Below, piece by piece: positions 7,826-25,240 of a DNA stretch of 64,000 nucleotides. A program made the translations under genes and the position numbers. Under the pieces are notes generated by a model, which worked only from the letters and a program-made list of their open reading frames with translations, made no database searches and had not been told where the DNA came from. The first letter of the stretch is position 1. Each line of letters opens with the position of its first letter. The DNA is taken from assembly GCF_053078305.1 (NCBI RefSeq), contig NZ_CP166879.1. One strand, given 5' to 3'.

Positions 7826-8029
7826 TTATTCCTGCTGATAACGCTCCTCTACTTTCTTCTCAAGCCATGATTTCACCTCATCCTCAAACCAGCCAACGCG
7901 GCGTAATCCACGCTTAAAACCAGGAATAAATTCACCAGCCTTAACCATTGTGTCAATGCTCGTTGTACTAAGGCGAAGAAGATTTGCGACTTCTCGTTTT
8001 GTAAGGATTTTCTTTTCTGTAATGTTCAT
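7826..8029 (-). CDS. alpA: AlpA-family phage regulatory protein (HTH)
   Basis: 67-aa ORF. LTKREVANLLRLSTTSIDTMVKAGEFIPGFKRG is the typical AlpA/excisionase-like HTH, a hallmark of P4-like and PICI elements. Confidence 0.8.
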   Translation of the reverse strand: MNITEKKILTKREVANLLRLSTTSIDTMVKAGEFIPGFKRGLRRVGWFEDEVKSWLEKKVEERYQQE

Positions 8030-8120
8030 ACTTTGCGTTCCTTTTGTTTCAGGCGCTAACTTGCCTAAACTTGTTCAAGGATATGCAAACACGGTAAAAG
8101 CTGGCATTGCGGAATATTAC

Positions 8121-8146
8121 GAAAAAAGCCCGTAATATTACGGGCG
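8121..8146 (-). terminator. Rho-independent terminator ending the int-orf298 transcription unit
   Basis: Perfect 18-bp palindrome gcccgtaatattacgggc, followed on the minus strand by TTTTTT. Confidence 0.65.
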
Positions 8147-8166
8147 GTCATATGTTCAGAAGTCTG

Positions 8167-9063
8167 TCAGTCGTCAACGTCTGCAAGCCACTTACCTATG
8201 CATGTTGGTGTGGCACCGATATCAACGCCTGCTTTGGTTAGTGCGCGGCTTAACTTGCTGTGACCGTTTTCAAGCGCCCTTCGTGGGTTTGACGCCTCTT
8301 CTTCTCCGGCTATAGCGGTGATTAGTCTTTTGATAACTCTGGCCTGAAGATTGGTTGTTTTCTTTGATGGGGGTGGTTTATTGATGTTTAATTCATCCAT
8401 GTTTTCAATAGAAGCGGTACGCCCTCCGTTTATGGCTAAATCTATCTCACTTCTGGAAATAAAAATATCGTTACGTGATATATCCCATCCCTGTAATAAA
8501 ATCGCAGCTTTAAAATCATCCTCGTCATCGTTATCGATTATCTGAATGTATTTAGTATTTGTTGTATCGTGAAATGATAATCTTTCAATGTCTGCGCTGT
8601 TAGCCTTTACATTAAGCAATCCATCAGCTTTAACATATATTTCTTTTGCGGGTGTTATTATTTGTGCGTTTTTTATCTCTGGCTCATCTTCAGCAAAAAT
8701 ATTCATGCTGAAATAATCACCATATGATGAGTAATGATAGTTTATGTTGAGTCCTGCATGTGCATAATAAAAAACATCTATTGGAGTGAGTAGCTTATTT
8801 ATAGATGTGGCATCAATGATTACATTGCAATATTCATTTGTGTAATGCTGGTATAATGTTTTATTAGCACTGATAAGCTCAGGCTTTACCCCTTCATAAT
8901 ACTTTAATGTCAGTTTTTCATTTATATTAATGCGATACAAAAAACGCATCCTCCTCGTAGCGATGAAATGAAGCAAATCATCAACGTCACACTCAAGCCT
9001 TCTGGCTGCCTTGTCTAACGGGTAATAATCCCTTTCAGGAAGGTTTATTTTTTTGTTTGCCAT
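8167..9063 (-). CDS. AT-rich cargo gene of unknown function (298 aa) with an N-terminal HTH-like segment
   Basis: It lies immediately downstream of int, 5 nt apart, in the same transcription unit. Its GC content is much lower than that of its neighbours. PLDKAARRLECDVDDLLHFIATRRMRF looks like an Xis/MerR-type HTH. No other recognisable domain was found. Confidence 0.5.
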   Translation of the reverse strand: MANKKINLPERDYYPLDKAARRLECDVDDLLHFIATRRMRFLYRININEKLTLKYYEGVKPELISANKTLYQHYTNEYCNVIIDATSINKLLTPIDVFYYAHAGLNINYHYSSYGDYFSMNIFAEDEPEIKNAQIITPAKEIYVKADGLLNVKANSADIERLSFHDTTNTKYIQIIDNDDEDDFKAAILLQGWDISRNDIFISRSEIDLAINGGRTASIENMDELNINKPPPSKKTTNLQARVIKRLITAIAGEEEASNPRRALENGHSKLSRALTKAGVDIGATPTCIGKWLADVDD

Positions 9064-9067
9064 GCCC

Positions 9068-10348
9068 TTAACCGTTAACCATTTTTAACCCACGATAGCC
9101 ACCCGTGGCGCTTACGCTCCCGCTGGCAGCTGCCTCTACAAAATCCCCCCACCACGCCATTAACGGGCGTCGCTGCTCGAGATAGGTTGAGCGGTTGTAC
9201 GCACGGCGAACCTCGTTTTTATCTATGTGTGACAATGCCGCCTCGATTACGTCAGAGTCAAAACCTTGCTCGTTAAGTGCGGTACTTGCTATTGAGCGCA
9301 AGCCATGAGCAACCAGCCGCCCACTAAAACCCATGCGTTTTATTGCTGCGTTTGCTGTTTGTACGCACATATGGCGCTGCGGGTCGCTGTTGTGTGGAAA
9401 TATAAACTCACGATGCCCGCTTATTGGCTTCATGACGTCCAGAATGGCTAACGCCTGCTTCGAGAGTGGTATTACGTGTTCCCTGCGTTGTTTAAGTCTG
9501 TGCTCTGGTATGCGCCATTCCTTCACCTCAAAATCAATTTCACACCAGCGCGCGCCAGCTGCTTCACCTGGTCGGCAAATTGTCAGTAGCTGCCACTCAA
9601 TGACCAGCCGCGTTTGTCGTTCCACCCGTGCCGTTGCCAGCTTCTGCATAAATTCGGGGAGTTCTTCAGGGCGTATTGCTGGCATGTTCTTAACGCTTGG
9701 CGCGTTAAATGCCTTGCTTATCTCTGATGCCGGATTCGCGGCAATCATTCCGGTATTAACGGCGTAATACATGACCTCATTGATTCGCTGTGCTGTCCTT
9801 CTGACGGTATCTAATTTCCCCTGGGCGGCTAATGGTTTTAATGCTTCGATGAAATTGCTTGCTATCAGGTCTGCTATTGGCCTGTTACCGACTGACGGGA
9901 ATACATTACGCTCCAGCGAACGCCATATATCGCGTAGTGTATCTTCTGCGAGTCCTTGCCCTTTTTTAAGTTCAAACCAGAGCGTAGCTACATGCCTGAA
10001 GGTGTTCTCTCTCTTCATCACTTCACTAAGGCGCTGTTTCTCTCTGTGCTCTTTTGGGTCAATGCCACCAGAAAGAAGCGCTCTGTATTCGTCTTTTATC
10101 TTTCGCGCGCCCGCAATGCTGATTTCTGGATATGCGCCAATGCTTAACATGGCCCGTTTTTTTGTGTGTGGCTTGTAGTAGCGGTAACGCCACAAGCAAG
10201 AGGCGCTTTTGTGCTTAATCACCAGTTCCAGCCCTTCGCCGTCAGTGATGAAAAGGTCCTTTTTTTCGTTGCTGGCTTTTCGCTGGAGGCTTTTTATCGT
10301 TGCGGGTGATAAAGACTTAACTTTTTTGGTCACCGGTTCAACTCCCAT
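9068..10348 (-). CDS. int: P4-type tyrosine integrase (site-specific recombinase)
   Basis: 426-aa ORF with an N-terminal DUF4102-like arm-binding region and the C-terminal catalytic motifs HGLRS and YLEQR..W...V. It lies adjacent to the tRNA 3' end. Confidence 0.85.
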   Translation of the reverse strand: MGVEPVTKKVKSLSPATIKSLQRKASNEKKDLFITDGEGLELVIKHKSASCLWRYRYYKPHTKKRAMLSIGAYPEISIAGARKIKDEYRALLSGGIDPKEHREKQRLSEVMKRENTFRHVATLWFELKKGQGLAEDTLRDIWRSLERNVFPSVGNRPIADLIASNFIEALKPLAAQGKLDTVRRTAQRINEVMYYAVNTGMIAANPASEISKAFNAPSVKNMPAIRPEELPEFMQKLATARVERQTRLVIEWQLLTICRPGEAAGARWCEIDFEVKEWRIPEHRLKQRREHVIPLSKQALAILDVMKPISGHREFIFPHNSDPQRHMCVQTANAAIKRMGFSGRLVAHGLRSIASTALNEQGFDSDVIEAALSHIDKNEVRRAYNRSTYLEQRRPLMAWWGDFVEAAASGSVSATGGYRGLKMVNG

Positions 10349-10388
10349 AAGCTGTTAAAGGCATATGCAAATCTGTGTTTTTTCCGGC

Positions 10389-10412
10389 GTATGCCTTTTT
10401 GTATGCCTTTTT
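10389..10412. repeat. Direct repeat gtatgcctttttgtatgccttttt, int-proximal copy
   Basis: Identical to the 1804-1828 copy, between the int start and the tRNA. Confidence 0.6.
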
Positions 10413-10531
10413 AATCTTGCTTATACGCTATCAAACTGGCCCAAACTGAACAATAAAAAACCCGCGTTCCTTGTCTGGCGCGGGTTTGCTTTGTTTAACT
10501 TGCCGTAACTTGTCTTTACTTGGTGTCGATT

Positions 10532-10607
10532 TGGTGGCCCCTGCTGGACTTGAACCAGCGACCAAGCGATTATGAGTCGCCTGCTCTAACCACTGAGCTA
10601 AGGGGCC
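10532..10607 (-). tRNA. ileX: tRNA-Ile2 (CAU anticodon, lysidine-modified), the integration target
   Basis: The minus strand reads GGCCCCTTAGCTCAGTGGTTAGAGCAGGCGACTCATAATCGCTTGGTCGCTGGTTCAAGTCCAGCAGGGGCCACCA. This is 76 nt with a CAT anticodon and a cloverleaf consistent with ileX. Confidence 0.9.
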
Positions 10608-10731
10608 ATGGTAGCGGATTATAAAGTAACTCCGTGTCGCAATCCAGCCATTACCGCGCGCCTGCTGTTTTTATAAACAATGTATTTTCAATCCGTTATA
10701 CTTTTCCTGATGATGTTAGAAAGGAGTAAAT

Positions 10732-11238
10732 ATGGTTGAGGATATTTTGGCTCCAGGGTTACGGGTCGTGTTTTGCGGTATCAACCCTGGGCTTTCATCC
10801 GCCGGGACTGGTTTTCCCTTTGCTCATCCGGCAAATCGCTTCTGGAAGGTGATATATCAGGCCGGGTTTACCGACCGTCAGTTGAAGCCGCAGGAGGCAC
10901 AGCATCTGCTGGATTATCGTTGTGGCGTCACCAAACTGGTAGACCGTCCAACGGTGCAAGCCAATGAAATTTCAAAGCAAGAGCTACACGCAGGTGGGCG
11001 TAAGCTGATTGAAAAAATTGAAGATTATCAGCCGCAAGCGTTGGCGATTCTGGGTAAACAAGCATATGAACAGGGATTCAGCCAGCGCGGTGCACAGTGG
11101 GGGAAACAAACGCTCAGCATTGGTTCGACGCAGATTTGGGTGCTGCCAAATCCCAGTGGTTTAAGTCGCGTTTCACTGGAGAAACTGGTTGAAGCGTATC
11201 GCGAGCTGGACCAGGCGCTGGTGGTGCGTGGGCGATAA
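10732..11238 (+). CDS. mug: G/U mismatch-specific DNA glycosylase
   Basis: 168-aa ORF with the GINPG motif, in the K-12 neighbourhood. Confidence 0.9.
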
Positions 11239-11264
11239 AAAACGCCACCGAAAAGGTGGCGTTT
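11237..11264. terminator. Bidirectional rho-independent terminator shared by mug and rpoD
   Basis: Hairpin acgccacc-gaaa-aggtggcgt, flanked by A and T runs. Confidence 0.6.
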
Positions 11265-11316
11265 GTGCAAAGGGACAGGTGCCGGGTGCGGCGTAACGCC
11301 TGATCCGGCCTACCGA

Positions 11317-13158
<1,842 letters not shown>

Positions 13159-13352
13159 AAGACGGTATCCACACTTATTTCATGAGGTTGGTGTTGGGCG
13201 ATTGACCCGATGTCCTTCAGCCGTTAACGCTGAAATCCAACGGTTGTTTACCGCCAACGATAATTACGAGGGCGTACTTATATATTTGCCGCTGCCTCTC
13301 AGTGCGGCTGTCGGGGGCTTCCCGATCGCTCTTCGGCACTTAAGCCGTTAAA

Positions 13353-15098
13353 TCACTTTTTCGCCAGCTCCTGGTTTAATGTCCAGAGCTCCAGGCGTTC
13401 TTCGTTGCTTAAACCATGCGTGCGCTCACGAGCGATTAACTCTTCCTGGCGCAGTTCAAGCAGCGAATCAAACATATGGTTGAGTGAGTCGGTGAAGGTT
13501 TGCTCAGCAATATTCTTATCTGCTATATCGTCCCACATCGACAGTTTTTCAAGGGTGGCAGCATTATTTGTACCACGATAGTGCTCTAAAAGTTGCCCGG
13601 TGGTCAGACCTGGCTGGGAGAGACAAGTGTTGACCAGTTCTCTGAATAAGCCAAGTCCAGGGAGCTTATTTTCATCCAGATTCTCAAGCGGCGGGACCAA
13701 CGTCGCTAATTCTGGATTTTGCACCAGCAACCCTATAAGTATACGCATGGTCGTGCGTTTTAGCTGCGGAACAGGGCGAGAAACGCCGCTCTCTGCCGCT
13801 TTTGGCATTAATCGTTCAAGCTGGCTGTCATCAAGTATGCCTAATTTGTTGCCTAATTCCTGACGAAGATATATTCGCAGCGTTTCGCCCGGCACTTGCG
13901 ATATCAATGGCAGTGCCAGCGTACTCAAACGTGCGCGCCCGTCAGGGGTACTCAGATCAACTTGCGGCATCAGGCTGTTAAACAGAAATGCGGAGAGTGG
14001 CATCGCCTGCTCCATCCGCGCTTCAAACGCTTCTTTACCTTCTTTTCGTACCAGCGTGTCAGGGTCTTCGCCATCAGGCAAAAACATAAAGCGTAGCTGA
14101 CGGCCGTCTGTCATGTAAGGCAGCGCCGTTTCCAGCGCTCGCCATGCGGCATCACGGCCTGCACGGTCGCCGTCATAACAGCAAATGACATTGTTGGTCG
14201 CGCGGAACAACAGTTGTATGTGATCGGCGGTGGTTGACGTACCTAACGACGCAACGGCGTAATTAATGCCGTATTGCGCCAGCGCCACCACGTCCATATA
14301 GCCTTCGACCACAAGCAGACGATTGGGTTCAGCGTTATCCTGCTGCGCTTCATAAAGACCGTAAAGCTGGCGGCCTTTATGGAAAATGTCTGTTTCCGGC
14401 GAGTTCAGGTATTTGGGGGTATCGTTGCCCAGCACACGCCCGCCAAAACCAATCACCCGACCGCGTTTATCGCGAATGGGGAACATCACCCGCTCGCGGA
14501 AACGATCGTAACTGCGCCCCTGATCGTTAGTGACCAACATGCCCGCATCAATCAATGACTGGCGATTTTCTGGATTGCCGCCAAACCTCTTCAGGACGTT
14601 GTCCCAGCCGGGGGGCGCAAAACCAATCGCAAAGCGGGCGATAACCTCGTGGCTTAATCCGCGTTTTTCCAGATACTGGCGCGCAGACGTGGCAACAGGT
14701 TGCTGTAAAGATTGTTGGTAAAACGTATTCAGACCGTCCATCAACTGATAAAGCGTTTGCCGCTGATGGCGCTCGATCTGGCTGGGGCCGCTACCTGCTT
14801 CAAATGGCACTTCAAGATTGTGCATTGCTGCCAGCTCTTCGACCGTTTCGACGAACTCGAGCTTGTCGTAGTTCATCAGGAAGTCGATCGCGTTGCCGTG
14901 CGCGCCACATCCAAAGCAGTGGTAAAACTGTTTCTCACCGTTAACGGTGAAGGACGGGGTTTTCTCGTTGTGGAATGGACAACACGCGTGGAAATTCTTG
15001 CCCTGCTTTTTCAGCTTCACACGGGCATCGATCAGATCGACGATGTCGGTGCGTGCCAGCAGATCATTAATGAATACGCGTGGGATTCGTCCAGCCAT
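13353..15098 (-). CDS. dnaG: DNA primase
   Basis: 581-aa ORF with a zinc-binding CHACCPFHNEKTPSF motif and a Toprim domain. Confidence 0.97.
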   Translation of the reverse strand: MAGRIPRVFINDLLARTDIVDLIDARVKLKKQGKNFHACCPFHNEKTPSFTVNGEKQFYHCFGCGAHGNAIDFLMNYDKLEFVETVEELAAMHNLEVPFEAGSGPSQIERHQRQTLYQLMDGLNTFYQQSLQQPVATSARQYLEKRGLSHEVIARFAIGFAPPGWDNVLKRFGGNPENRQSLIDAGMLVTNDQGRSYDRFRERVMFPIRDKRGRVIGFGGRVLGNDTPKYLNSPETDIFHKGRQLYGLYEAQQDNAEPNRLLVVEGYMDVVALAQYGINYAVASLGTSTTADHIQLLFRATNNVICCYDGDRAGRDAAWRALETALPYMTDGRQLRFMFLPDGEDPDTLVRKEGKEAFEARMEQAMPLSAFLFNSLMPQVDLSTPDGRARLSTLALPLISQVPGETLRIYLRQELGNKLGILDDSQLERLMPKAAESGVSRPVPQLKRTTMRILIGLLVQNPELATLVPPLENLDENKLPGLGLFRELVNTCLSQPGLTTGQLLEHYRGTNNAATLEKLSMWDDIADKNIAEQTFTDSLNHMFDSLLELRQEELIARERTHGLSNEERLELWTLNQELAKK

Positions 15099-15208
15099 AG
15101 GCCCCGATTTTTAGCAATTCATAAACGAAAATAAGCCGCGCATTCCTTTCGGAAGCACGGCCTTACAACTACAACTCGGTCTGATCGGAGAGCAACGCTC
15201 TCGGGGAA

Positions 15209-15463
<255 letters not shown>

Positions 15464-15661
15464 TCAACGCCAGCTTATTTCAAAATGGTGCGGAATTTTA
15501 CTGCAATTGCTGCTGCTTTGTAAAGCACCGCGGCCTTTTTTGAAAGGGACTTTTATAAGGGTGAGGAGTATACACGAGGCTTTCTCCAGGGGCGAACAAA
15601 GTTTTACATCAACCCGCATTGGTCCTACACTGCGCGGTAATAAAGCGAGGTAAAACAAGTC

Positions 15662-16675
15662 ATGCGTGTACTGGGTATTGAAACTTCCTGCGATGAAACC
15701 GGCATCGCCATTTACGACGATGAAAAAGGTTTGTTAGCCAACCAATTGTATAGTCAGGTGAAATTGCACGCTGACTACGGGGGCGTTGTGCCTGAGCTGG
15801 CCTCCCGCGATCATGTGCGTAAAACCGTACCGTTGATCCAGGCGGCGCTAAAGGAGTCTGGTTTAACGGCAAAAGACATTGATGCTGTGGCCTATACCGC
15901 AGGCCCTGGATTAGTCGGCGCGCTGCTGGTTGGCGCGACCGTGGGGCGTTCTCTGGCGTTTGCCTGGGACGTTCCGGCGATCCCTGTACACCATATGGAA
16001 GGGCATCTGTTAGCGCCGATGCTGGAAGATAACCCGCCGGAATTTCCGTTTGTTGCGCTGCTGGTTTCCGGCGGTCATACGCAGTTAATCAGCGTGACTG
16101 GCATTGGTCAGTACGAGCTGCTCGGCGAGTCTATCGATGATGCCGCCGGTGAAGCGTTTGATAAAACCGCGAAGCTGCTGGGGCTGGATTATCCTGGCGG
16201 ACCGTTACTGTCGAAAATGGCGGCTCAGGGTACTGCCGGGCGCTTTGTTTTCCCGCGTCCGATGACCGACCGTCCGGGGCTGGATTTCAGCTTTTCTGGT
16301 CTGAAAACCTTTGCGGCGAACACGATTCGTGACAACGGCACCGACGACCAGACGCGTGCTGATATCGCCCGCGCCTTTGAAGATGCGGTGGTCGATACGT
16401 TGATGATTAAGTGTAAGCGTGCGCTGGATCAGACGGGCTTTAAGCGACTGGTCATGGCGGGCGGCGTGAGTGCTAACCGCACGTTACGGGCGAAGCTGGC
16501 TGAAATGATGAAAAAACGCCGCGGCGAAGTGTTCTACGCGCGTCCGGAATTTTGTACTGATAACGGCGCGATGATCGCCTATGCCGGAATGGTGCGGTTT
16601 AAAGCAGGCGCGACGGCGGATCTCGGCGTTAGCGTACGTCCGCGCTGGCCGCTGGCGGAGTTACCGGCTGCGTAA
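15662..16675 (+). CDS. tsaD: tRNA N6-threonylcarbamoyladenosine synthase TsaD (YgjD)
   Basis: 337-aa [23 protein letters not shown]..., Kae1/TsaD family. Confidence 0.95.
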
Positions 16676-16717
16676 AACTATTGGGTGCCGGAGAGCAATT
16701 TCCGGCACCGTCCTCAC

Positions 16718-18181
16718 TTAAAGCAACACCACGGGCATCCACAGTAAGCCGGTAATCACCAGCAACACGAGGAATATCAACCCAAAAATCGCCCCCAGTC
16801 GCCAGTAATCCGCCGTTGGCAGATAACCACTACCGTAGTAAATCGGACTGGGTCCGGTGGCGTATGGTGTAAGAATGCTCCCCAGACCAATTGCCGCGCC
16901 AACCATCAGGCAGAACACCGGCAGCGGGATTTCCGGCATCGCCAGCGCGGCGGCAATCATCATCGGTGCGAGGGCGGAGGTATACGCCGTGGCGCTGGCG
17001 AAAAAGTAGCGCAGTAGATAAAACACCACAATCAACGCCACCATCACCATCGTTGGCGAATAACCGCTTAAGCTGCCTGCTAACAGTTTGCCAAACCAGC
17101 TAATAAAACCGGTGTTGTTGAGTCCGGTCGCGAGGGTGATAAGCGAGGCCAGCCAGAAGAAAACGTTCCACGCCGCTTTATTACTGACAATGTCGTCCCA
17201 ACTGATAATGCGCAGAAGCAGCATCAGCGCCACCACGCTGTAACCGACCATCGCGGCATCGATATAATCACCGCCGAAAATCCACAGCACCAGCGCGCCT
17301 ACCATCAGCCCCAGCATCCGTTTTTCACGCGAACAGAGCGGGCCCATTGCCTGCAGTTCCGTCTCTGCCCAGCGCGGCACCTGATCGCCTGACTTCAGTA
17401 CAGGCGGGTACAACACGTAAGCCAGCCAGGGAATCAGCAGGACCAGTAAAATACTGAGCGGCAACATCCCGAGGAACCAGTCGCCCCAACTCAGCGTGGC
17501 GTGAGATGCACTTTTCATCAGTCCAATTAACAGCAAGTTTGGTGCCATCGCCGTCAGGAAAATGGCGCTGGTCACGCAGTCGGCAACAATCCCCATCCAC
17601 ATGATGTACGAGCCAATGCTGCGTGAACTGCTGTCGTTTGGTTGTGATTGATAGAGCGGCGGCAGGTTACGGATGATGGGATAGATAATCCCCGCACCAC
17701 GCGCCGAGTTGGACGGTGTGACAGGTGCCAGGATCAGCTCGGAGAACATCACCGCATAGCCAAGAAACAGCGTGCGATGCCCCATCTTTTTCACCAGAAT
17801 CAGCGCGATACGTCGCCCCAGCCCGGTTTTTTCATAGCCTGTGCCAAACATAAAGGCGGCGAAAATCAGCCAGATAACCGAATTAGAAAAACCGGAAACG
17901 GCCCACGAGAGGGATTTTGCAGTGAATTTAAAGCCTGGCTGAGCGAGCTGCTCCGGGCTGAACAGCAGCCAGGGAGAGAGTATGGCGATGATGGATATAC
18001 CCACCATCGCCACCACGGCACCCGGCACGGGTTCGAGGATCAGTCCAACGATTACGCCAGTAAAAACGGCAAAGTAGAGCCAGGTATGACTCTCCAGCCC
18101 TGCGGGAACCGGAATTAGAGCAATAATGGCGATGACCGCCAGCGGCGCAAGGTATCGCCACCATTCAGTGGAAGGTTTCAT
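16718..18181 (-). CDS. ttdT: L-tartrate/succinate antiporter (DASS family)
   Basis: 487-aa polytopic membrane protein downstream of ttdAB. Confidence 0.9.
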   Translation of the reverse strand: MKPSTEWWRYLAPLAVIAIIALIPVPAGLESHTWLYFAVFTGVIVGLILEPVPGAVVAMVGISIIAILSPWLLFSPEQLAQPGFKFTAKSLSWAVSGFSNSVIWLIFAAFMFGTGYEKTGLGRRIALILVKKMGHRTLFLGYAVMFSELILAPVTPSNSARGAGIIYPIIRNLPPLYQSQPNDSSSRSIGSYIMWMGIVADCVTSAIFLTAMAPNLLLIGLMKSASHATLSWGDWFLGMLPLSILLVLLIPWLAYVLYPPVLKSGDQVPRWAETELQAMGPLCSREKRMLGLMVGALVLWIFGGDYIDAAMVGYSVVALMLLLRIISWDDIVSNKAAWNVFFWLASLITLATGLNNTGFISWFGKLLAGSLSGYSPTMVMVALIVVFYLLRYFFASATAYTSALAPMMIAAALAMPEIPLPVFCLMVGAAIGLGSILTPYATGPSPIYYGSGYLPTADYWRLGAIFGLIFLVLLVITGLLWMPVVLL

Positions 18182-18228
18182 CGTGTTATGCCTGCGAAAA
18201 AGGAGAGGGGCGAGCCTCTCCGGGAGGG

Positions 18229-18834
18229 TTATTTGATGTAATGGACGTGCTCGCAGATCTCTTCCACGATGGGATCGCGGCGTTCGGCGAACAGCTTTTT
18301 GTTTTCGGCTATCAGGTTGTTGCCGTGGGTATCAATAGAGACAATCAGCGGGCCGAACTCTTTGACCCGGCAGACCCACAGTGACTCCGGCATCCCGAGT
18401 TCTGTCCAGTGCACCTCTTCAATCTCTTCCACCTGGGTTGCCGCCAGCACCGCGCAGCCTGCCGGGAAAATCACATGTAGCGCCTTGAATTTCTGGCAGC
18501 CTTCTTCGGTCAGCGGCCCCATTCCGCCTTTGCCGACCACCAGTTTCACGCCGGTCTGCTCGATAAATTCACGTTCAAAACTTTCCATACGCATACTGGT
18601 TGTCGGACCGACGGAAACCATCTCCCATTTGTCGCCGTTTTTGCGCACGATGGGGCCAGCGTGGAAAATCGCTTTGCCGTTGAGATCGTAAGGGATCGGA
18701 CGTTTCAGTTCGATCAATCGGCGGTGACAAACGTCACGGCAGGTCACCAGCGTACCGGTCAGATAGATCACATCGCCGACGTGAATATCTTGCAGATCTT
18801 CAGCTTTGATCGGGGTTGTCAGGATCTTTTTCAT
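18229..18834 (-). CDS. ttdB: L(+)-tartrate dehydratase beta subunit
   Basis: 201-aa ORF, fumarate-hydratase class I C-terminal-like. Confidence 0.9.
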
Positions 18835-19742
18835 AACGCGCTCCGGGTGTGAGACAGATTTTCAAAGGTGAGATCGGCATGAACTCGCAGTGTGCCGCGA
18901 CGATGCGCCCAGCAGCCGGTAGAAACAGCAACGCCGATGGTTGACGGATGGCGGGCGGCAGATTCGATATGCACGCCCATCACTGAACTGTTGCCAGTCA
19001 GCCCTTGTGGACCAATCCCCAGACGGTTGAGTCCTTCTTCCAGGCGTAGCTCCAGCTCTGCCGCTTTTGGATTGGGGTGGCGGCTGCCAATCGGGCGCAA
19101 AATGGCTTTACGCGAGAGTACGGCGGCGGTTTCCACCGAGGTGGCGATGCCCACGCCCACCAGTACCGGTGGACAGGCGTTTACGGCGAGGGTGGAGATA
19201 TTTTCGAAGACGAATTTCACTACGCCTTCGTAGCCTTCTGACGGCATTAACACTTTCGAGCGGCCAGGTAGCGTGCAGCCGCCGCCTGCCATGTAAACTT
19301 CGATTTCCGCATCGTCACCGTCGGGGACGATATCCCAGGTGACCCACGGTACGCCGCTGCCGGTATTTTTGCCTGTGTTCACTTCGTCAAAAATTTCTAC
19401 CGCATTGTGACGTAGTGGCGCTTTGACGGTTGCCTCTTCCACGGCTTGTTTGAGTATGCTTTGCAGCTCGCCAAGCAGTGGGAAGCGGGAACCGACTTTA
19501 ACGAAGAACATAATCTCCCCGGTGTCCTGACAGGCAGGACGATTCAGGTCAATCGCTTTTTGCATGTTGTCGAACATCGTATGGTAGATAATTTTCCCCA
19601 TCGACGACGTTTCGGCATCCTTTAGCTGTTTTAGTTTATCCACCACGTCATCAGGCATTCGGGTAGAAATCATGGCGGTAAAGTTAGCGACAATCTCCGT
19701 CAACTTATTCACTGCCTGTTGCTTATTACTTTCGCTCATCAT
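18831..19742 (-). CDS. ttdA: L(+)-tartrate dehydratase alpha subunit
   Basis: 303 aa when started at MMSESNKQQ. The ORF-track entry extends 18 codons further upstream to 19796. TtdA is 303 aa, as recalled. Confidence 0.9.
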
Positions 19743-19948
19743 GGCAACTCCAGTTTCTGTATTTGTCTGGAAAAATTCACCGCCACAAACTACCACTAAA
19801 AATGTGGTTTTATATTTTTTGCCACCGTGAATATGTAATTAACAGTTCGTGAATCAACGCGAAAATAAGTATGAATATTGCGCCAGAGCAGGGAATGGCA
19901 ATGTTTTGCGAAATACACTGCGCTTATCACAACTGCGGATAATTAACG

Positions 19949-20881
19949 ATGCTGAATAGCTGGCCTTTAGCCAAAGATTTGCAGGTACTGGTAGAAATCG
20001 TCCACAGCGGGAGTTTTAGCGCCGCAGCGGCGACGCTTGGGCAGACGCCCGCATTTGTCACCAAGCGGATCCAAATCCTTGAAAATACGTTGGCAACAAC
20101 GCTGCTGAACCGCTCCGCTCGCGGCGTGGCGCTGACTGAAAGTGGTCAACGTTGTTACGAACATGCGCTGGAAATCCTCACCCAATATCAGCGACTGGTC
20201 GATGACGTCACGCAAATCAAAACGCGCCCGGAGGGGATGATTCGTATTGGTTGCAGTTTTGGTTTTGGGCGCAGCCATATTGCGCCAGCCATTACCGAAC
20301 TGATGCGCAATTATCCTGAGTTACAGGTGCATTTTGAATTGTTCGATCGACAAATTGATTTAGTGCAGGATAATATTGATCTGGATATTCGTATTAATGA
20401 CGAAATTCCTGATTATTATATTGCGCATCTTTTGACAAAAAATAAAAGAATATTATGCGCAGCACCTGAGTATCTGCAAAAATATCCGCAGCCACAATCC
20501 CTACAGGAATTAAGTCGTCATGACTGTCTGGTGACCAAAGAGCGCGATATGACCCACGGAATATGGGAGTTGGGGAACGGTCAGGAGAAAAAATCGGTGA
20601 AGGTTAGCGGGCATCTTTCCTCCAATAGCGGCGAGATTGTGCTGCAATGGGCGCTGGAGGGCAAAGGGATTATGCTGCGTTCCGAGTGGGATGTGTTGCC
20701 GTTTCTGGAGAGTGGCAAACTGGTGCAAGTATTGCCGGAGTATGCACAAAGCGCCAATATCTGGGCTGTTTACCGGGAGCCGCTCTATCGCAGCATGAAA
20801 TTACGTGTCTGCGTGGAATTTCTGGCGGCATGGTGCCAGCAACGGCTGGGCAAACCCGATGAAGGCTATCAGGTCATGTAG
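19949..20881 (+). CDS. ttdR: LysR-family regulator of the ttd operon
   Basis: 310-aa ORF with an N-terminal HTH and a LysR substrate-binding domain, divergent to ttdA. Confidence 0.9.
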
Positions 20882-20893
20882 ATCCACCAGAAA

Positions 20894-21511
20894 TCACTCG
20901 GGATCCTTTTCGCGCTTTCTTTTGAATTTCGTCCAGATTTTTGTCTCCTGACGACGCCACAGACGCTGGATGTTGTCATGATGACGCAGCAGGATCAGGC
21001 AAGAGAGCATCGAAACCGGGAAGGTGAATTGTGGCTTAAACCACCAGACATAAAACGGAGCAATCAGTGCACTGACAATCGCTCCCAGCGACGAGTATCC
21101 GCTCAATAGCACGGTCAGTAACCAGGTTCCCGCCATTACTCCGGTGAGATCCCAGCCAATGGGTGCGATGGCACCAAAAGCGGTAGCAACGCCTTTTCCT
21201 CCTTTAAATCCGAAGAAAACGGGCCAGATGTGTCCAAGACAGGCGGCGATGGCAATTAAGCCTAGCCAGAAGGGGCTGACACCTAATTCATACGCGCCCC
21301 AGACGGGCAACATTCCTTTCAGAACGTCGAAAATCAGTACTGCTACGGCTGCTCCCTTGCCACCGATACGTAACACATTGGTTGCGCCTGGATTGCCGGA
21401 GCCGCTGGTTCGCGGATCGGGCAGCCCACACAAGCGGCAAACCAGAATGGCACTGGAAATGGAGCCGCAGAGGTACGCGATGAGGATCATTCCAGGCGCG
21501 ATTGCACTCAT
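20894..21511 (-). CDS. plsY: Glycerol-3-phosphate acyltransferase PlsY
   Basis: 205-aa membrane protein (YgiH). Confidence 0.9.
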
Positions 21512-21615
21512 AAGCTGTTCCGTTTTGAAAATTCGTGTTCAACGATGAATCTGTGGATAATACGCACATTTCGCCGGAAGTGGTATCCGGTTAGCCAAAA
21601 AGCAGGCAGGACGTG

Positions 21616-21984
21616 ATGGATATTGTATTTATAGAGCAACTTTCGGTAATCACCACTATTGGTGTTTACGACTGGGAACAGACCATCGAACAGAAGTTAG
21701 TGTTCGATATCGAAATGGCGTGGGATAACCGTAAAGCGGCGAAAAGTGATGATGTGGCGGATTGCCTCAGCTACGCTGACATTGCAGAAACGGTGGTCAG
21801 CCACGTCGAGGGGGCACGTTTTGCGCTGGTGGAGCGCGTGGCGGAAGAGGTGGCGGAGCTGCTGTTAGCACGCTTCAACTCGCCGTGGGTGCGTATCAAA
21901 CTCAGCAAGCCAGGCGCAGTGGCGCGGGCGGCGAATGTTGGCGTAATCATTGAGCGTGGCAATAATCTGAAAGAAAATAATTAA
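21616..21984 (+). CDS. folB: Dihydroneopterin aldolase
   Basis: 122 aa from MDIVFIEQLSVITTIGVYDWEQ. Confidence 0.9.
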   Translation: MDIVFIEQLSVITTIGVYDWEQTIEQKLVFDIEMAWDNRKAAKSDDVADCLSYADIAETVVSHVEGARFALVERVAEEVAELLLARFNSPWVRIKLSKPGAVARAANVGVIIERGNNLKENN

Positions 21985-22074
21985 TTTTACAGCTGTTAAA
22001 CCAAACGGTTATAACCTGGTCATACTGCAGTAGTTCGGACAAGCGGTACATTTTAATAATTTAGGGGTTTATTG

Positions 22075-22896
22075 ATGAGCGATATGCACTCGCTGCTGAT
22101 AGCGGCAATATTGGGTGTGGTCGAAGGATTGACAGAATTTCTGCCGGTATCCAGCACGGGCCATATGATTATTGTCGGTCACTTGTTGGGGTTTGAGGGC
22201 GACACGGCGAAAACCTTTGAAGTTGTGATCCAGTTAGGATCAATTCTGGCGGTAGTAGTGATGTTCTGGCGGCGTCTGTTTGGCCTGATTGGCATCCACT
22301 TTGGCCGCCCGTTGCAGCACGAAGGAGAAAGCAAAGGTCGTTTAACGCTGATCCACATTTTGCTGGGGATGATTCCGGCGGTGGTACTGGGGCTGTTGTT
22401 CCACGACACGATTAAGTCATTGTTTAACCCGATAAATGTGATGTATGCGCTGGTCGTTGGCGGTTTGTTGCTGATTGCCGCCGAATGCCTGAAGCCGAGA
22501 GAGCCGCGTGCGCCGGGTCTTGATGATATGACCTATCGTCAGGCGTTTATGATTGGCTGTTTCCAGTGTCTGGCGCTGTGGCCGGGTTTCTCCCGTTCCG
22601 GGGCGACCATTTCAGGTGGGATGCTGATGGGGGTGAGCCGTTACGCTGCTTCCGAGTTTTCGTTCCTGCTGGCGGTGCCGATGATGATGGGCGCAACGGC
22701 GCTCGATCTCTACAAAAGCTGGGGCTTCCTGACAAGCGGCGATATCCCGATGTTTGCCGTTGGGTTTATCACCGCTTTTGTGGTGGCGCTGATAGCGATT
22801 AAAACCTTCCTGCAATTGATTAAGCGCATTTCGTTTATCCCGTTCGCCATTTATCGCTTTATTGTGGCGGCTGCGGTGTATGTCGTGTTCTTTTAA
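22075..22896 (+). CDS. uppP: Undecaprenyl-diphosphate phosphatase (BacA)
   Basis: 273 aa from [30 protein letters not shown]. Confidence 0.92.
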
Positions 22897-22913
22897 TTGA
22901 GGAATAGTGTCGG

Positions 22914-23072
22914 ATGCCTGGCGTTGTCCACGATTGCGTAGGCCGAATAAGGCGTTCACGCCGCATCCGGCAATCAACGCCTGATGCGACGCTTGCGCGT
23001 CTTATCAGGCCTACAACTGTCGTTGACGTGTAGCCGGATAAGGCGTTTACGCCGCATCCGGCAAAATGCCCA
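22914..23072. repeat. BIME: cluster of REP elements between uppP and cca
   Basis: Two or three REP units (gccggataaggcgtttacgccgcatccggc and variants) in alternating orientation. Confidence 0.8.
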
Positions 23073-23076
23073 ATAC

Positions 23077-24315
23077 TCATTCAGGCTTTGGGCAACGTTG
23101 TTCCTTCCAGCTGGCTACCGCCGCAATCCGCCGTCGGGTCAGCTCCTCGCGAATCTCCACGCCTTTAAATCCCGCTTCAACGACGGCTTTTGTCGGCACT
23201 GACTGCGCCACTTCCCAGGCTTCGCGCAACCAACGGCCTTGCGGGTAGTCCGCTGATTCAAAACCGGTTCTGCCGCGCACGTCAGCCTCGCTGGTCAGCG
23301 CCAGTTGCTCGACACGCTGCGGTTTACGCCAGGCATCGATGGAATCAAATAATTTGACGATGGTTTTTGGGTTCAGCATTGGGAAGGTGTGGATGAGATC
23401 GTGAAACTCAGCCACCAGTCTGGCTAAATCGCGAATTTCATTTGGCACGCGCAGACGCTGGCATAGTTGTTCCACTAACTTAACACCCGCCGGGCCATGA
23501 CCATGATGACGCGGCCAGAGTTCTGGCGGCGTCAGTCCTTTACCGAGATCGTGGCATAAAGTTGCGAAACGGACATCGACCTGCGGACTCAGCATCGCCG
23601 CCATTGAGAGCGTCATTAAGGTATGAATACCCGTGTCGATTTCCGGATGCCACCTGGCAGGGGCCGGAACGCCAAACAGGGCGTCAATTTCCGGGAATAA
23701 AACGCGAAGTGCACCGCAATCGCGCAGTACCTGGAAGAACACCTGGGGATTGCTGGTGGTGAGGGCGCTTTCCGTCTCTTTCCACACCCGTTCAGGCGTC
23801 AGGTGTTCCAGTTCACCCGCATGGGTCATCTCGCGCATCAACGCCAGAGTTTCATCGGCAATACGAAAACCGAGGTGGGCATAACGCGCAGCAAAACGCG
23901 CCACGCGCAGTACGCGTAACGGATCTTCGCCAAAAGCGGGGGAAACATGGCGCAACAGACGATTTTGCAGATCGCCCAGACCGTTGTACGGGTCGATAAT
24001 CTCGCCGTTATCGTCCTGGGCCAGCGCATTAATGGTCAGATCGCGACGCTTAAGATCATCTTCCAGCGTGACATCCGGTGCGGCATAGCAGGTAAAACCG
24101 GTGTAACCGGAGCCGGATTTCCGTTCGGTACGTGCCAGCGCATACTCTTCATGCGTTTGCGGATGCAGAAACACAGGAAAATCGCGGCCTACCTGCTGGT
24201 AGCCCGCGTCGAGCATCTCCTGTGGCGTACTGCCGACCACTACCCAATCTCTGTCTTTGACCGGTAGCCCTAACAATGCATCCCGAACAGCACCACCGAC
24301 CAGATAAATCTTCAC
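23077..24315 (-). CDS. cca: tRNA nucleotidyltransferase (CCA-adding enzyme)
   Basis: 412-aa [31 protein letters not shown], with an HD domain. Confidence 0.95.
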
Positions 24316-24378
24316 GCCATCATCCCTTCGTCAAATACACAATTCCTAATAATAAGACAGTGCAACGAAGAAGGCGAT

Positions 24379-24999
24379 TTAGTTCATCCAGCGATCTTTG
24401 CGTTTGCGGCTTGGGATCAGGTGCGGCAGTACCAGACCGAGCAGCAAGCCAAGCCCCAGCACGCCGCCGCCATACATAAACCATTGCATGATGATGGTGC
24501 GCTGTTTGTCATCCAGCTGTACGCTGGCGGCATCGACCTTTTTCTGCGCGACAATCAGCTCGTTTTTCAGTTTCTGATTTTCTTCTTTTAACCCATTGAT
24601 CACGCTGTCGCTCTGCGCCACTTTTTGCTGCATTTCTGCGGTGCGCTGATTCCAGGTGTTATCGATATTGGTGAGTTTATCGGTCAGGGTTTTGACCTGA
24701 TTTTCCAGATCTGGCACACGGGAGCGCAGGCTTGGCTCAGTGCTAAGTTGTTTCAACGGGATCCAGGCGGTACGGCCAGAGCTGTCTTTCACCTGGGCAT
24801 AATTGGTGTTGGCGTCAGTTTGTAATAAGGTCACTTCCTCGCCGGCGTTAACCGTGCCCACGAGGCGATAATGATCTCCCGGACCGCTGCGGACCCAGGT
24901 ATTCAGTTCGTCGGAAACATAGCGCGTTTCTTCAGCGTGTGAGACGGCAGTCGCGCTAAGTGCGAGTAAAGTTAATCCGATCAGGCGTAATTTTGGCAT
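24379..24999 (-). CDS. ygiM: SH3-domain membrane protein YgiM
   Basis: 206-aa ORF with a signal peptide, a coiled coil and a C-terminal transmembrane segment. Confidence 0.85.
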   Translation of the reverse strand: MPKLRLIGLTLLALSATAVSHAEETRYVSDELNTWVRSGPGDHYRLVGTVNAGEEVTLLQTDANTNYAQVKDSSGRTAWIPLKQLSTEPSLRSRVPDLENQVKTLTDKLTNIDNTWNQRTAEMQQKVAQSDSVINGLKEENQKLKNELIVAQKKVDAASVQLDDKQRTIIMQWFMYGGGVLGLGLLLGLVLPHLIPSRKRKDRWMN

Positions 25000-25240
25000 C
25001 AGGCTGTCGTTATTGTCATGGAAAGTGGAACGATAGTAGTGGCATCAGTGTCGCTACGCAAAGCATTCGACATCAATCGGAATCCTCTGTGTCAGGTCTT
25101 GCCACTGCTTCAAACTTTTACGCCCGTCAAATTGCCCGTTGCATGGCAATTTGGCGCAAAATACTATCTACTGACAAAAAAGATCGCATTAAGTTCGCCG
25201 TTCATCGTCACTTATGTGACATAACCGATAAGTAAAGGCC

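What the first reader, a model, noticed from the sequence alone, without database searches (positions are those of the whole stretch)
8167..9063. AT-rich 298-aa cargo gene co-transcribed with the integrase, a candidate accessory or anti-phage function
The gene starts 5 nt after the int stop. The int-orf298 unit is closed by a perfect 18-bp palindromic terminator at 8128-8145. Its base composition is markedly AT-rich compared with the rest of the island, for example long stretches such as ttaatgtaaaggctaacagcgcagacattgaaag. The protein has an N-terminal Xis/MerR-like HTH-looking segment and about 270 residues with no domain I can recognise. The int-adjacent position in P4-like and PICI elements is a known hotspot for single-gene defence or abortive-infection cargo, which makes this a good candidate for an uncharacterised system.
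Basis: inference. Interest (0 to 1): 0.75.

Follow-up and report, generated by a model that had tools for sequence, protein, structure and literature searches.

The report
Integrase-coupled DNA-binding regulator of a phage satellite
The AT-rich 298-aa gene is most likely not a defence gene but a DNA-binding regulator with a swappable centre, made together with the integrase of a small E. coli phage satellite and carrying its own paired binding sites just upstream of alpA, the gene that activates the satellite.

Summary
There is a 298-aa ORF at 8167-9063 (-), starting 4 nt after the int stop, with 38% GC against 52% for the window, followed by an 18-bp palindrome and a T6 run.

The defence-cargo reading is not supported. 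The protein matches no Pfam, PADLOC, PHROGs or NCBIfam model. It belongs to an unannotated Enterobacterales family (175 representatives at E<=1e-3). Wherever context could be read, the gene sits in the order int, X, alpA in PICI, cf-PICI or PICMI-like satellites, usually overlapping the int stop by ATGA. This is the "iolg/icg" slot, reported as needed for excision of the Vibrio satellite PICMI115.

The protein has three parts:
- a hypervariable beta-rich centre, replaced as a cassette between E. coli islands that are otherwise 97-100% identical;
- a conserved C-terminal helical domain.

Two 12-bp sites lie 20-21 bp apart just after the stop codon. In the window they are CGTAATATTACG and CGTAATATTCCG at 8110-8142. 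The site type follows the C-terminal domain type across three subgroups, and the sites are absent where an unrelated DUF6387 gene fills the slot.

My best reading is an int-coupled, operator-binding regulator that gates alpA and excision, with a swappable centre that may act as a sensor. DNA binding, the direction of regulation and any sensing are inferred, not shown.

The parts
9068..10348 (-). P4-type tyrosine integrase (Arm-DNA-bind_3, Phage_int_M, Phage_integrase; NCBIfam PRK09692). It is the first gene of the int-orf298 unit.
8167..9063 (-). orf298, the int-contiguous gene (icg/iolg-type slot). It belongs to an unannotated Enterobacterales family.
8929..9063 (-). Codons 1-45: N-terminal Xis/MerR-type winged helix-turn-helix, with family motif LP.R.YYPL..AA..L.C.V.DLLH.
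8365..8928 (-). Codons 46-233: hypervariable beta-rich central domain, 33% GC. It is replaced as a block between E. coli alleles whose flanks are 97-100% identical.
   Evidence: the model is poor for residues 78-135
8170..8364 (-). Codons 234-298: conserved five-helix C-terminal domain with an HTH-like G..P.(S)G.T...WL motif. It is the domain whose type tracks the downstream site type.
   Evidence: weak match to the P-element transposase HTH (E = 0.28)
8131..8142 (.). Site O1, CGTAATATTACG, a perfect 12-bp palindrome. It forms the core of the 18-bp palindrome 8128-8145, which with T6 (8122-8127) also looks like an intrinsic terminator.
8110..8121 (-). Site O2, CGTAATATTCCG, an 11/12 match to O1, centred 21 bp from O1.
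   Evidence: All 3 CGTAATATT matches in the 64-kb window lie here; 0.32 are expected by chance.
8057..8074 (-). Two 10-bp-phased CAAGTT repeats 20-45 nt upstream of the alpA ATG. The same motif occurs three times next to the tRNA/att at 10496-10523. They are probably AlpA or Int-accessory sites.
7826..8029 (-). alpA (HTH_17/Phage_AlpA), the master activator/excisionase of Gram-negative PICIs.
   Evidence: PMC11773190, PMC10803314
10532..10607 (-). tRNA (anticodon CAT; annotated tRNA-Ile in RefSeq, i.e. ileX). This is the integration site of the island.

Best explanation
orf298 encodes a three-domain, sequence-specific DNA-binding protein that belongs to the integration/induction module (int, X, alpA) of a small PICI-type phage satellite integrated at ileX.

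It is transcribed with Int and probably translationally coupled to it, so it would be present in the quiescent, integrated state.

Its conserved C-terminal helical domain is proposed to recognise two 12-bp sites 21 bp apart, O1 at 8131-8142 and O2 at 8110-8121. These lie directly behind its own stop codon, at the only entrance to alpA. From there it would gate alpA expression and therefore satellite excision.

The N-terminal Xis-like winged helix may contact DNA or Int. The hypervariable central domain, exchanged as a cassette between otherwise identical islands, would be the specificity or sensing part. Its likely partner is a helper-phage or host factor.

**Shown here:** domain architecture, fixed synteny, coupling to int, cassette exchange, and covariation of site type with C-terminal domain type.

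**Inferred:** actual DNA binding, any effect on alpA, its direction (activator or repressor), and sensing.
For: **1. Fixed synteny**
- Relatives at 23-47% identity in Salmonella, Yersinia, Serratia, an Enterobacterales isolate and metagenomes all lie in the order int, X, alpA.
- In IMG/VR elements integrated at fis, every family gene whose int is in the stretch held lies directly after int: 12 of 15 overlap it by 4 nt, the others by 1 nt or after a gap of 89-96 nt.
- These loci have differing replication and packaging modules. Two integrase clades are involved that share only about 22% identity.

**2. Structure**
- The AF2 model has mean pLDDT 75, with the N- and C-terminal domains above 90.

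**3. Paired sites**
- Two palindromic or near-palindromic sites, 20-21 bp apart, start within about 25 nt of the stop codon. They occur in three subgroups with three different motifs.
- The motifs are CGTAATATT (window, L001-L003, Salmonella L007), GGAAnTTCC, and GTGATATCAC.
- Each motif lies behind the stop codon only in its own subgroup (groups I and III have almost no copies elsewhere; the looser group II pattern has scattered copies).
- In the window 3 matches are found against 0.32 expected, and 0 of 100 shuffles reach 3.

**4. A natural chimera**
- L014 has an N-terminus 73% identical to groups III/IV, but a C-terminus 55-71% identical to group II.
- It carries group II sites. The site type therefore follows the C-terminal domain.

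**5. The sites belong to the slot cassette, not to AlpA or Int**
- L060 (family gene) and L061 (DUF6387) are 90-92% identical through int and alpA.
- They are non-homologous across the slot gene and the first ~56 nt after it.
- L061 has no such site behind its slot gene.

**6. Rate and cassette behaviour**
- X evolves faster than Int and AlpA in every pair compared.
- Its centre is swapped between E. coli alleles.

**7. Literature**
- How the helper switches on alpA is stated there as an open question (PMC10803314).
Against: - No binding experiment exists.
- The sites are physically adjacent to the C-terminal coding region, so covariation could partly reflect linkage. What linkage does not explain is the same two-site, 20-21-bp layout recurring in three unalignable sequence types.
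- In the window O1 is also a good terminator hairpin, which could be its only role.
- Subgroup IV (L011, L013, L015) shows no clear pair apart from the alpA leader hairpin.
- Related satellites work without any gene in this slot, or with an unrelated DUF6387 gene. The function is therefore not universally required.
- Homology to the tested PICMI115 IOLG was not established.
- That gene's deletion was complemented only with int and iolg together, so its direct role is itself not fully proven.
- The island also has C4/isrK-type immunity RNAs, which already provide one layer of repression.
Confidence: 0.55

Rival explanations
1. It is a pure recombination accessory factor, the IOLG reading. The protein joins Int and AlpA in the excisive intasome, using its Xis-like N-terminal winged helix on att-arm DNA, and has no role in transcription.
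For: - Coupling to int: a 4-nt gap here and an ATGA overlap in most relatives.
- The N-terminus superposes on Xis, RdfS, AlpA-type excisionase and TorI.
- PICMI115 delta-iolg abolishes excision, and the authors propose an Int-IOLG-AlpA excision complex.
Against: - The only motif that tracks the protein lies behind its own stop codon, not near att. All CGTAATATT copies in the window are at 8110-8142.
- Integrases that are 84-95% identical carry this family, DUF6387, or nothing. That is hard to reconcile with an obligatory, co-evolving Int cofactor.
- A hypervariable centre is not expected for an architectural protein.
Confidence: 0.2
2. It is anti-phage or superinfection-exclusion cargo. This would be a single-gene defence or abortive-infection protein riding in an int-adjacent hotspot.
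For: - The gene is AT-rich and rare, and the slot is exchangeable.
- The region between int and the regulator is listed as an accessory region of PICIs (PMC10085698).
- EcCIMP1 gives superinfection immunity through an unknown gene (PMC11773190).
Against: - No PADLOC hit, and no recognisable enzymatic or effector domain.
- No homologue in 50,697 phage records.
- The position is fixed and coupled to int over deep divergence.
- Both conserved ends look like DNA-binding domains, with dedicated sites next to alpA.
Confidence: 0.1
3. The palindromes are only terminators or insulators that travel with the cassette, and the protein has some other, unrelated function. One possibility is a partner-binding adaptor without sequence-specific DNA binding.
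For: - O1 with T6 scores as a terminator.
- The sites are adjacent to the C-terminal coding sequence, so linkage alone can produce covariation.
Against: - Group II and III sites (GGAAnTTCC, GTGATATCAC) have 4-5-bp arms and no T run, so they are not terminators.
- O2 in the window is not part of a hairpin.
- The same two-site, 20-21-bp spacing recurs in three unrelated sequence types.
Confidence: 0.1

Closest known systems
IOLG/ICG (integrase-overlapping or integrase-contiguous gene) of PICMI satellites, Vibrionaceae (Barcia-Cruz et al. 2024, PMC10803314)
   Same: - Same slot between int and alpA, on the same strand.
- ATGA overlap with the int stop in most relatives, and a contiguous 4-nt gap here.
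- Unknown function and many unrelated families in the slot.
- The host element is a small satellite with int, alpA and a replication gene.
- Yersinia fis elements are listed there as PICMI-like; the fis-adjacent Yersinia islands that carry a relative (L011, L012) look like that type, though identity with the listed elements was not checked.
   Different: - Sequence homology to the tested PICMI115 IOLG could not be checked, because no sequence was available.
- The domain architecture and the paired sites described here are not reported in that paper.
- This is an Enterobacterales family, and the E. coli copy is integrated at ileX rather than fis.
Stl master repressors of staphylococcal pathogenicity islands (SaPIs)
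   Same: - Similar size (240-320 aa), with a DNA-binding HTH and a divergent partner-binding part.
- The gene sits beside int.
- Unrelated or highly divergent versions occupy the same slot in related islands.
- The predicted sites lie between the regulator gene and the genes that start the island cycle.
   Different: - No sequence or fold similarity was detected.
- The gene is co-directional with alpA and downstream of int, rather than divergently transcribed.
- The direction of regulation is unknown. The PICMI115 iolg deletion blocks excision rather than causing it.
- Gram-negative PICIs are described as activator (AlpA)-driven.
Excisionases / recombination directionality factors (lambda-type Xis, TorI, AlpA, RdfS) and MerR-family regulators
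   Different: - 298 aa with two further domains.
- No Pfam HTH_17, Phage_AlpA or MerR signature.
- No MerR-type coiled-coil helix; beta strands follow the winged helix.
- A separate alpA gene lies next to it.

Membership tests
IOLG/ICG slot genes of PICMI-type satellites | Lies between int and alpA on the same strand | tested here: met
   int 9068-10348, orf298 8167-9063 and alpA 7826-8029 are all on the minus strand. The order is the same in L007, L011, L013, L014 and L015 and in the IMG/VR loci whose downstream sequence was read.
IOLG/ICG slot genes of PICMI-type satellites | Overlaps the int stop (typically ATGA) or is contiguous with it | tested here: met
   The window has a 4-nt gap, which is the icg type. 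Relatives overlap by 4 nt in 12 of 15 IMG/VR loci (1 nt or a gap of 89-96 nt in the others) and in L011, L013 and L014.
IOLG/ICG slot genes of PICMI-type satellites | Carried by a satellite with int, alpA and a primase/replicase | tested here: met
   The island, about 1740-10540, has int, alpA, Ash/Icd with C4 RNAs, DUF4222, a RepA-type helicase, SSB, PerC and Mor.
IOLG/ICG slot genes of PICMI-type satellites | Required for helper-induced excision | not testable with these tools
   This needs a non-polar deletion and an excision qPCR assay, as was done for PICMI115.
IOLG/ICG slot genes of PICMI-type satellites | Sequence homology to PICMI115 IOLG | not tested
   The paper and its supplements give no protein sequence. 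No Vibrionaceae member was seen among the named relatives.
Known anti-phage defence systems (PADLOC-DB 2.0) | Match to a defence-protein model | tested here: not met
   0 families at E<=0.1.
Known anti-phage defence systems (PADLOC-DB 2.0) | Recognisable effector domain (nuclease, NTPase, TIR, membrane-disrupting domain and similar) | tested here: not met
Known anti-phage defence systems (PADLOC-DB 2.0) | Phage-resistance phenotype | not testable with these tools
   This needs a phage challenge experiment.
SaPI Stl-type master repressors | HTH DNA-binding domain with operators between the regulator gene and the island's induction genes | tested here: inconclusive
   DNA-binding-type domains are modelled. 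Paired sites that covary with the C-terminal domain lie between the gene and alpA. Binding itself has not been shown.
SaPI Stl-type master repressors | Sequence or fold homology to Stl; divergent transcription from the induction operon | tested here: not met
   No PHROGs, Pfam or PDB match. The gene is co-directional with alpA.
Excisionase/RDF (Xis, AlpA, TorI) | Small single-domain winged-helix protein (about 55-100 aa) with an HTH_17, Phage_AlpA or Excise signature | tested here: not met
   The fold is met for residues ~10-60 only. The protein is 298 aa with three domains and no such Pfam or NCBIfam hit.
MerR-family regulators | Winged helix followed by a long dimerisation helix; Pfam MerR signature | tested here: not met

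The most novel reading that the evidence does not exclude
The family may be the missing helper-phage sensor of Gram-negative PICI-type satellites. This would be a functional counterpart of SaPI Stl, or a co-activator. It would be made constitutively with Int and sit on paired operators at the entrance to alpA. Its swappable central domain would bind a helper-phage protein, so exchanging that cassette (or the whole gene, for example for DUF6387) would re-target the satellite to a different helper.
Probability: 0.3. Interest if true: 0.85.

Novelty: new variant of a known kind. Interest (0 to 1): 0.6.

Why it matters
How Gram-negative PICIs and PICMIs detect their helper phage and switch on alpA is an open question. 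The PICMI paper asks it explicitly, and it also asks what IOLG does.

This analysis gives a concrete, testable candidate. It describes a protein family with defined domains and a defined pair of 12-bp sites (8110-8142). It also identifies natural domain-swap variants that predict which domain reads the DNA.

The analysis also warns against reading every AT-rich, int-adjacent gene in a satellite as defence cargo.

Tried and rejected
- **Family libraries.** Pfam, PADLOC, PHROGs and NCBIfam give no hit for this protein. Pfam gives no hit for any of 61 relatives or for the isolated N- and C-terminal pieces at E<=10.
- **PDB by sequence.**
  - A "Toxin" chain (8bgm_A, E = 0.009) matched the variable centre only with the broad profile. 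It was not reproduced with the close-family profile or the single sequence, and no paper mentions the entry. I rejected it as unsupported.
  - Matches to designed ankyrin repeats are compositional.
- **Fold searches.** Foldseek against PDB and BFVD found nothing at E<=0.001. The afdb50 library was not available.
- **Phage records.** tblastn against 50,697 phage records found no match.
- **Lost copies.** A search for decayed copies of the gene in the 364-419-bp int-alpA gaps of islands lacking it found none.
- **EcCIMP1_002.** This gene occupies the same slot in EcCIMP1, but from its description it is small (about a tenth the size of UvrB) and was once annotated UvrB-like, so it does not look related; its sequence was not compared.
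- **DUF6387.** The profile-profile comparison with this family gives probability 0.4%, so the two are unrelated.
- **Genome scans.** The genome-contig scan with the broad alignment failed because no stretch was conserved enough. A sub-alignment gave only two loci.
- **att core.** A BLAST search for a long att direct repeat was inconclusive. Only a short GGCCC(C)TGCTG similarity was seen at about 1732-1741 and 10537-10547.
- **First model.** The first AF2 model, built from 8 sequences, was too poor to use (pLDDT 45).

Full report
**The locus**

The window is E. coli chromosome around ileX, mug and rpoD. An island of about 8.8 kb lies between nfeF and the tRNA, at roughly 1740-10540. Read in the direction of transcription, on the minus strand, it carries:
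- int (9068-10348);
- orf298 (8167-9063);
- an AlpA-type HTH gene (7826-8029);
- three tandem 457-bp units encoding Ash/Icd-like ORFs together with C4-type antisense RNAs;
- a 104-aa ORF and a DUF4222 gene;
- a RepA-type AAA_25 helicase, followed by iteron-like repeats;
- SSB, PerC, Mor and two tRNA-like genes.

This is the four-zone layout described for Gram-negative PICIs: integration, Bro/immunity-RNA, replication and late zones (PMC10111431). Here the late zone is minimal.

**Check of the observation**

- The gap between the int stop and the orf298 start is 4 nt.
- The gene has 37.9% GC, and 33.1% in codons 51-230, against 50.0% for int and 51.6% for the window.
- GCCCGTAATATTACGGGC followed by T6 at 8122-8145 is a terminator-like hairpin.

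**How common the gene is, and who has it**

- The block from alpA through int occurs in 7 of 5426 complete E. coli genomes.
- The island's helicase module is found in 607 genomes at 80% coverage or more. Sampled islands of this kind are cf-PICI-like, with capsid (and in two of three a small-terminase) genes, and have an empty 364-419-bp gap between int and alpA. That gap holds no decayed copy of the gene.
- A word-indexed search of 5.8 billion proteins found only 10 clusters, from E. coli and one Salmonella diarizonae.
- A full HMM scan of 1.84 billion representatives found 175 proteins at E<=1e-3. Most are 240-320 aa, and many match at both ends but not in the middle.
- Named members are all "hypothetical protein". 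They come from Salmonella, Providencia, Enterobacter, Lelliottia, Rahnella, Pectobacterium, Serratia, Scandinavium and Yersinia.
- None of 61 members has a Pfam domain.

**Synteny**

Where context could be read, the gene lies directly after int and before alpA. This holds for:
- Salmonella (L007, 6-nt gap);
- Yersinia (L011, L012), an Enterobacterales isolate (L013) and a metagenome contig (L014), each with a 4-nt ATGA overlap;
- Serratia and Scandinavium (L015, L016).

A scan of IMG/VR for the fis 3' end returned 93 stretches. All 15 family genes there whose int is in the stretch held lie directly behind int, 12 of them with the 4-nt overlap.

These satellites differ in other respects:
- The replication modules are RepA helicase, D5_N/DUF5906, or Toprim with DUF927.
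- The late genes differ as well.
- Two integrase clades are involved that share only about 22% identity.

In every pair compared, X is the fastest-evolving of the three genes. For L011 against L013, Int is 89% identical, AlpA 73% and X 47%.

**The slot is an exchangeable cassette**

Between E. coli alleles, DNA identity is 97-100% through alpA, through codons 1-45 and 234-298 of orf298, and through int. It drops to 32-62% over window 8364-8928.

In fis-type satellites with integrases 84-95% identical, the slot instead holds a 280-290-aa DUF6387 gene with the same 4-nt overlap. That gene is unrelated to this family by profile-profile comparison. Homology between L060 and L061 stops about 46 bp before the int stop and resumes about 56 nt after the slot gene.

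**Structure**

With 61 sequences, AlphaFold2 gives a mean pLDDT of 75.
- Residues 11-40 and 235-290 score above 90.
- Residues 140-215 score mostly 70-95.
- Residues 78-135 are not modelled.

- a small-terminase N-terminus, RdfS, an AlpA-type excisionase and TorI.

Foldseek against PDB and BFVD finds nothing significant for the beta-rich centre or for the five-helix C-terminal domain. The C-terminal motif G(I/L)..P.SGKT...WLK weakly resembles the HTH of P-element transposase (E = 0.28). That is a lead only.

**Paired sites that follow the C-terminal domain**

Directly behind the stop codon, three subgroups each carry two palindromic or near-palindromic sites with centres 20-21 bp apart:

| Subgroup | Loci | Sites | Position relative to the stop |
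|---|---|---|---|
| I | window, L001-L003, Salmonella L007 | CGTAATATTACG and CGTAATATT(C/G)CG; L007 has CGTAATATTGCA as an inverted pair | from +25 to +57 (window 8110-8142) |
| II | L014, L053, L055, L060, L071, L102 | GGAAnTTCC-type | +2 and +22 |
| III | L025, L087, L095, L098, L105 | GTGATATCAC-type | -3 and +18, or +2 and +23 |

- Each motif lies behind the stop codon only in its own subgroup; groups I and III have almost no copies elsewhere, while the looser group II pattern has scattered copies. DUF6387 islands have none of them behind the slot gene.
- In the window, all three CGTAATATT matches lie at 8113-8142. Chance predicts 0.32, and 0 of 100 shuffles reach 3.
- L014 is a natural chimera. 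Its N-terminus is 73% identical to groups III/IV and 31-40% to group II. Its C-terminus is 55-71% identical to group II. Its sites are of group II type.
- L098 and L011 share 90% identical N-termini but have different C-termini and different downstream sequences.

The site type therefore follows the C-terminal domain. It does not follow the N-terminus, AlpA or Int.

Physical linkage could contribute to this covariation, because the sites abut the C-terminal coding sequence. Linkage does not explain why the same two-site, two-helical-turn layout recurs in three unalignable sequence types.

In E. coli it may serve both purposes.

**Literature**

- In PICMI115, a 6-kb Vibrio satellite, a gene that overlaps int by ATGA ("iolg") and lies between int and alpA is needed for helper-induced excision, together with int and alpA.
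- In that satellite int and iolg appear constitutive, and alpA is the phage-induced switch.
- Among 35 PICMI subfamilies, 21 carry an overlapping gene and four a contiguous one (the paper's "icg"). These fall into 13 unrelated families of unknown function, and three subfamilies have none (PMC10803314).
- The deletion was complemented only with int and iolg together. The authors leave open how the helper activates alpA and how IOLG acts.
- The SatelliteFinder paper lists the region between int and the regulator as an accessory region of PICIs (PMC10085698).
- In EcCIMP1, alpA sits downstream of int and is helper-induced and autoactivated. The slot there holds a small gene that, from its description, does not look related (PMC11773190).

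**Interpretation**

The gene is a member of the int-coupled slot-gene class.

The best-supported mechanism is that it is a sequence-specific DNA-binding regulator. Its C-terminal domain would bind O1 and O2 at the entrance to alpA, and its central cassette would set specificity.

Whether it represses or activates cannot be decided from sequence.
- Repression would work through a roadblock or promoter occlusion, relieved by a helper factor, as with Stl.
- Activation or co-activation would fit the loss of excision in PICMI115 delta-iolg.

A pure intasome-cofactor role and a defence role remain possible but fit the data less well; see the rival explanations.

**Verdict**

What is there is an undescribed family in a known but functionally unexplained slot. 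It now has a defined architecture and predicted operators.

Noticed in passing
window 6193-7652: Three tandem 457-bp units each carry an Ash/Icd-like ORF. Each also carries a C4 antisense RNA (Rfam RF01695, 72-78 bits, at 6415-6502, 6872-6959 and 7350-7437) with isrK-like and c4-a1b1 target matches. This looks like a triplicated P1/P4-type RNA immunity module. RefSeq relatives such as L001 have only two units.
   Followed up: partly
window 1985-2066 and about 2090-2187: Two tRNA-like genes sit at the far end of the island. RefSeq (PGAP) calls them tRNA-Tyr and tRNA-OTHER, and Rfam tRNA scores 35 bits for the first. ARAGORN finds neither. They could be satellite-borne tRNA cargo or decoys.
   Followed up: partly
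window 3921-4120: TACTCACTTTTT iterons with flanking inverted repeats lie just downstream of the RepA-helicase gene. This is the place where PICI replication origins are usually found.
   Followed up: no
window 8057-8074 and 10496-10523; L007 orfX-alpA gap and upstream of int: 10-bp-phased CAAGTT repeats occur both just upstream of alpA (two copies) and next to the tRNA/att (three copies). The Salmonella relative has GRCCAGA repeats at the same two places. They are probably AlpA or RDF sites shared between the att arm and the alpA promoter.
   Followed up: partly
L003 (NZ_CP075652.1), locus 5589-15507: Nearly the same island, with Int 95% identical, is inserted inside mdtP instead of at ileX. 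This suggests a secondary or changed integration site.
   Followed up: no
L011, L013-L015, L060, L061, L073 and other fis-type satellites, the 40-50 nt before the alpA ATG: A conserved GC-rich hairpin lies just before the alpA start codon; in many loci (L014, L060, L061 and others) it is followed by a T run, in L011, L013 and L015 it is not. An example is GCCCTCGAAC...CGAGGGC TTTTTAT ATG. Its 3' arm contains the only Shine-Dalgarno-like sequence. It is present whichever gene fills the slot, which suggests attenuation or translational masking of alpA.
   Followed up: partly
L044, L061, L073, L083, L094: A DUF6387 protein of 280-290 aa is an alternative occupant of the int-overlapping slot, with the same 4-nt or 1-nt overlap. 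Pfam lists its function as unknown.
   Followed up: partly
window 1804-1827 and 10389-10412: The doubled direct repeat GTATGCCTTTTTGTATGCCTTTTT is identical near both island ends. These are probably integrase arm-type sites.
   Followed up: no
L002 (NZ_AP045179.1), locus 14676-25001: In strain JNEC-KY203 a second integrase-bearing island follows directly after this one. It carries a tyrosine recombinase, a phosphoribosyltransferase, Gp2/YfjJ-type genes and IS elements, giving a tandem array at ileX.
   Followed up: no
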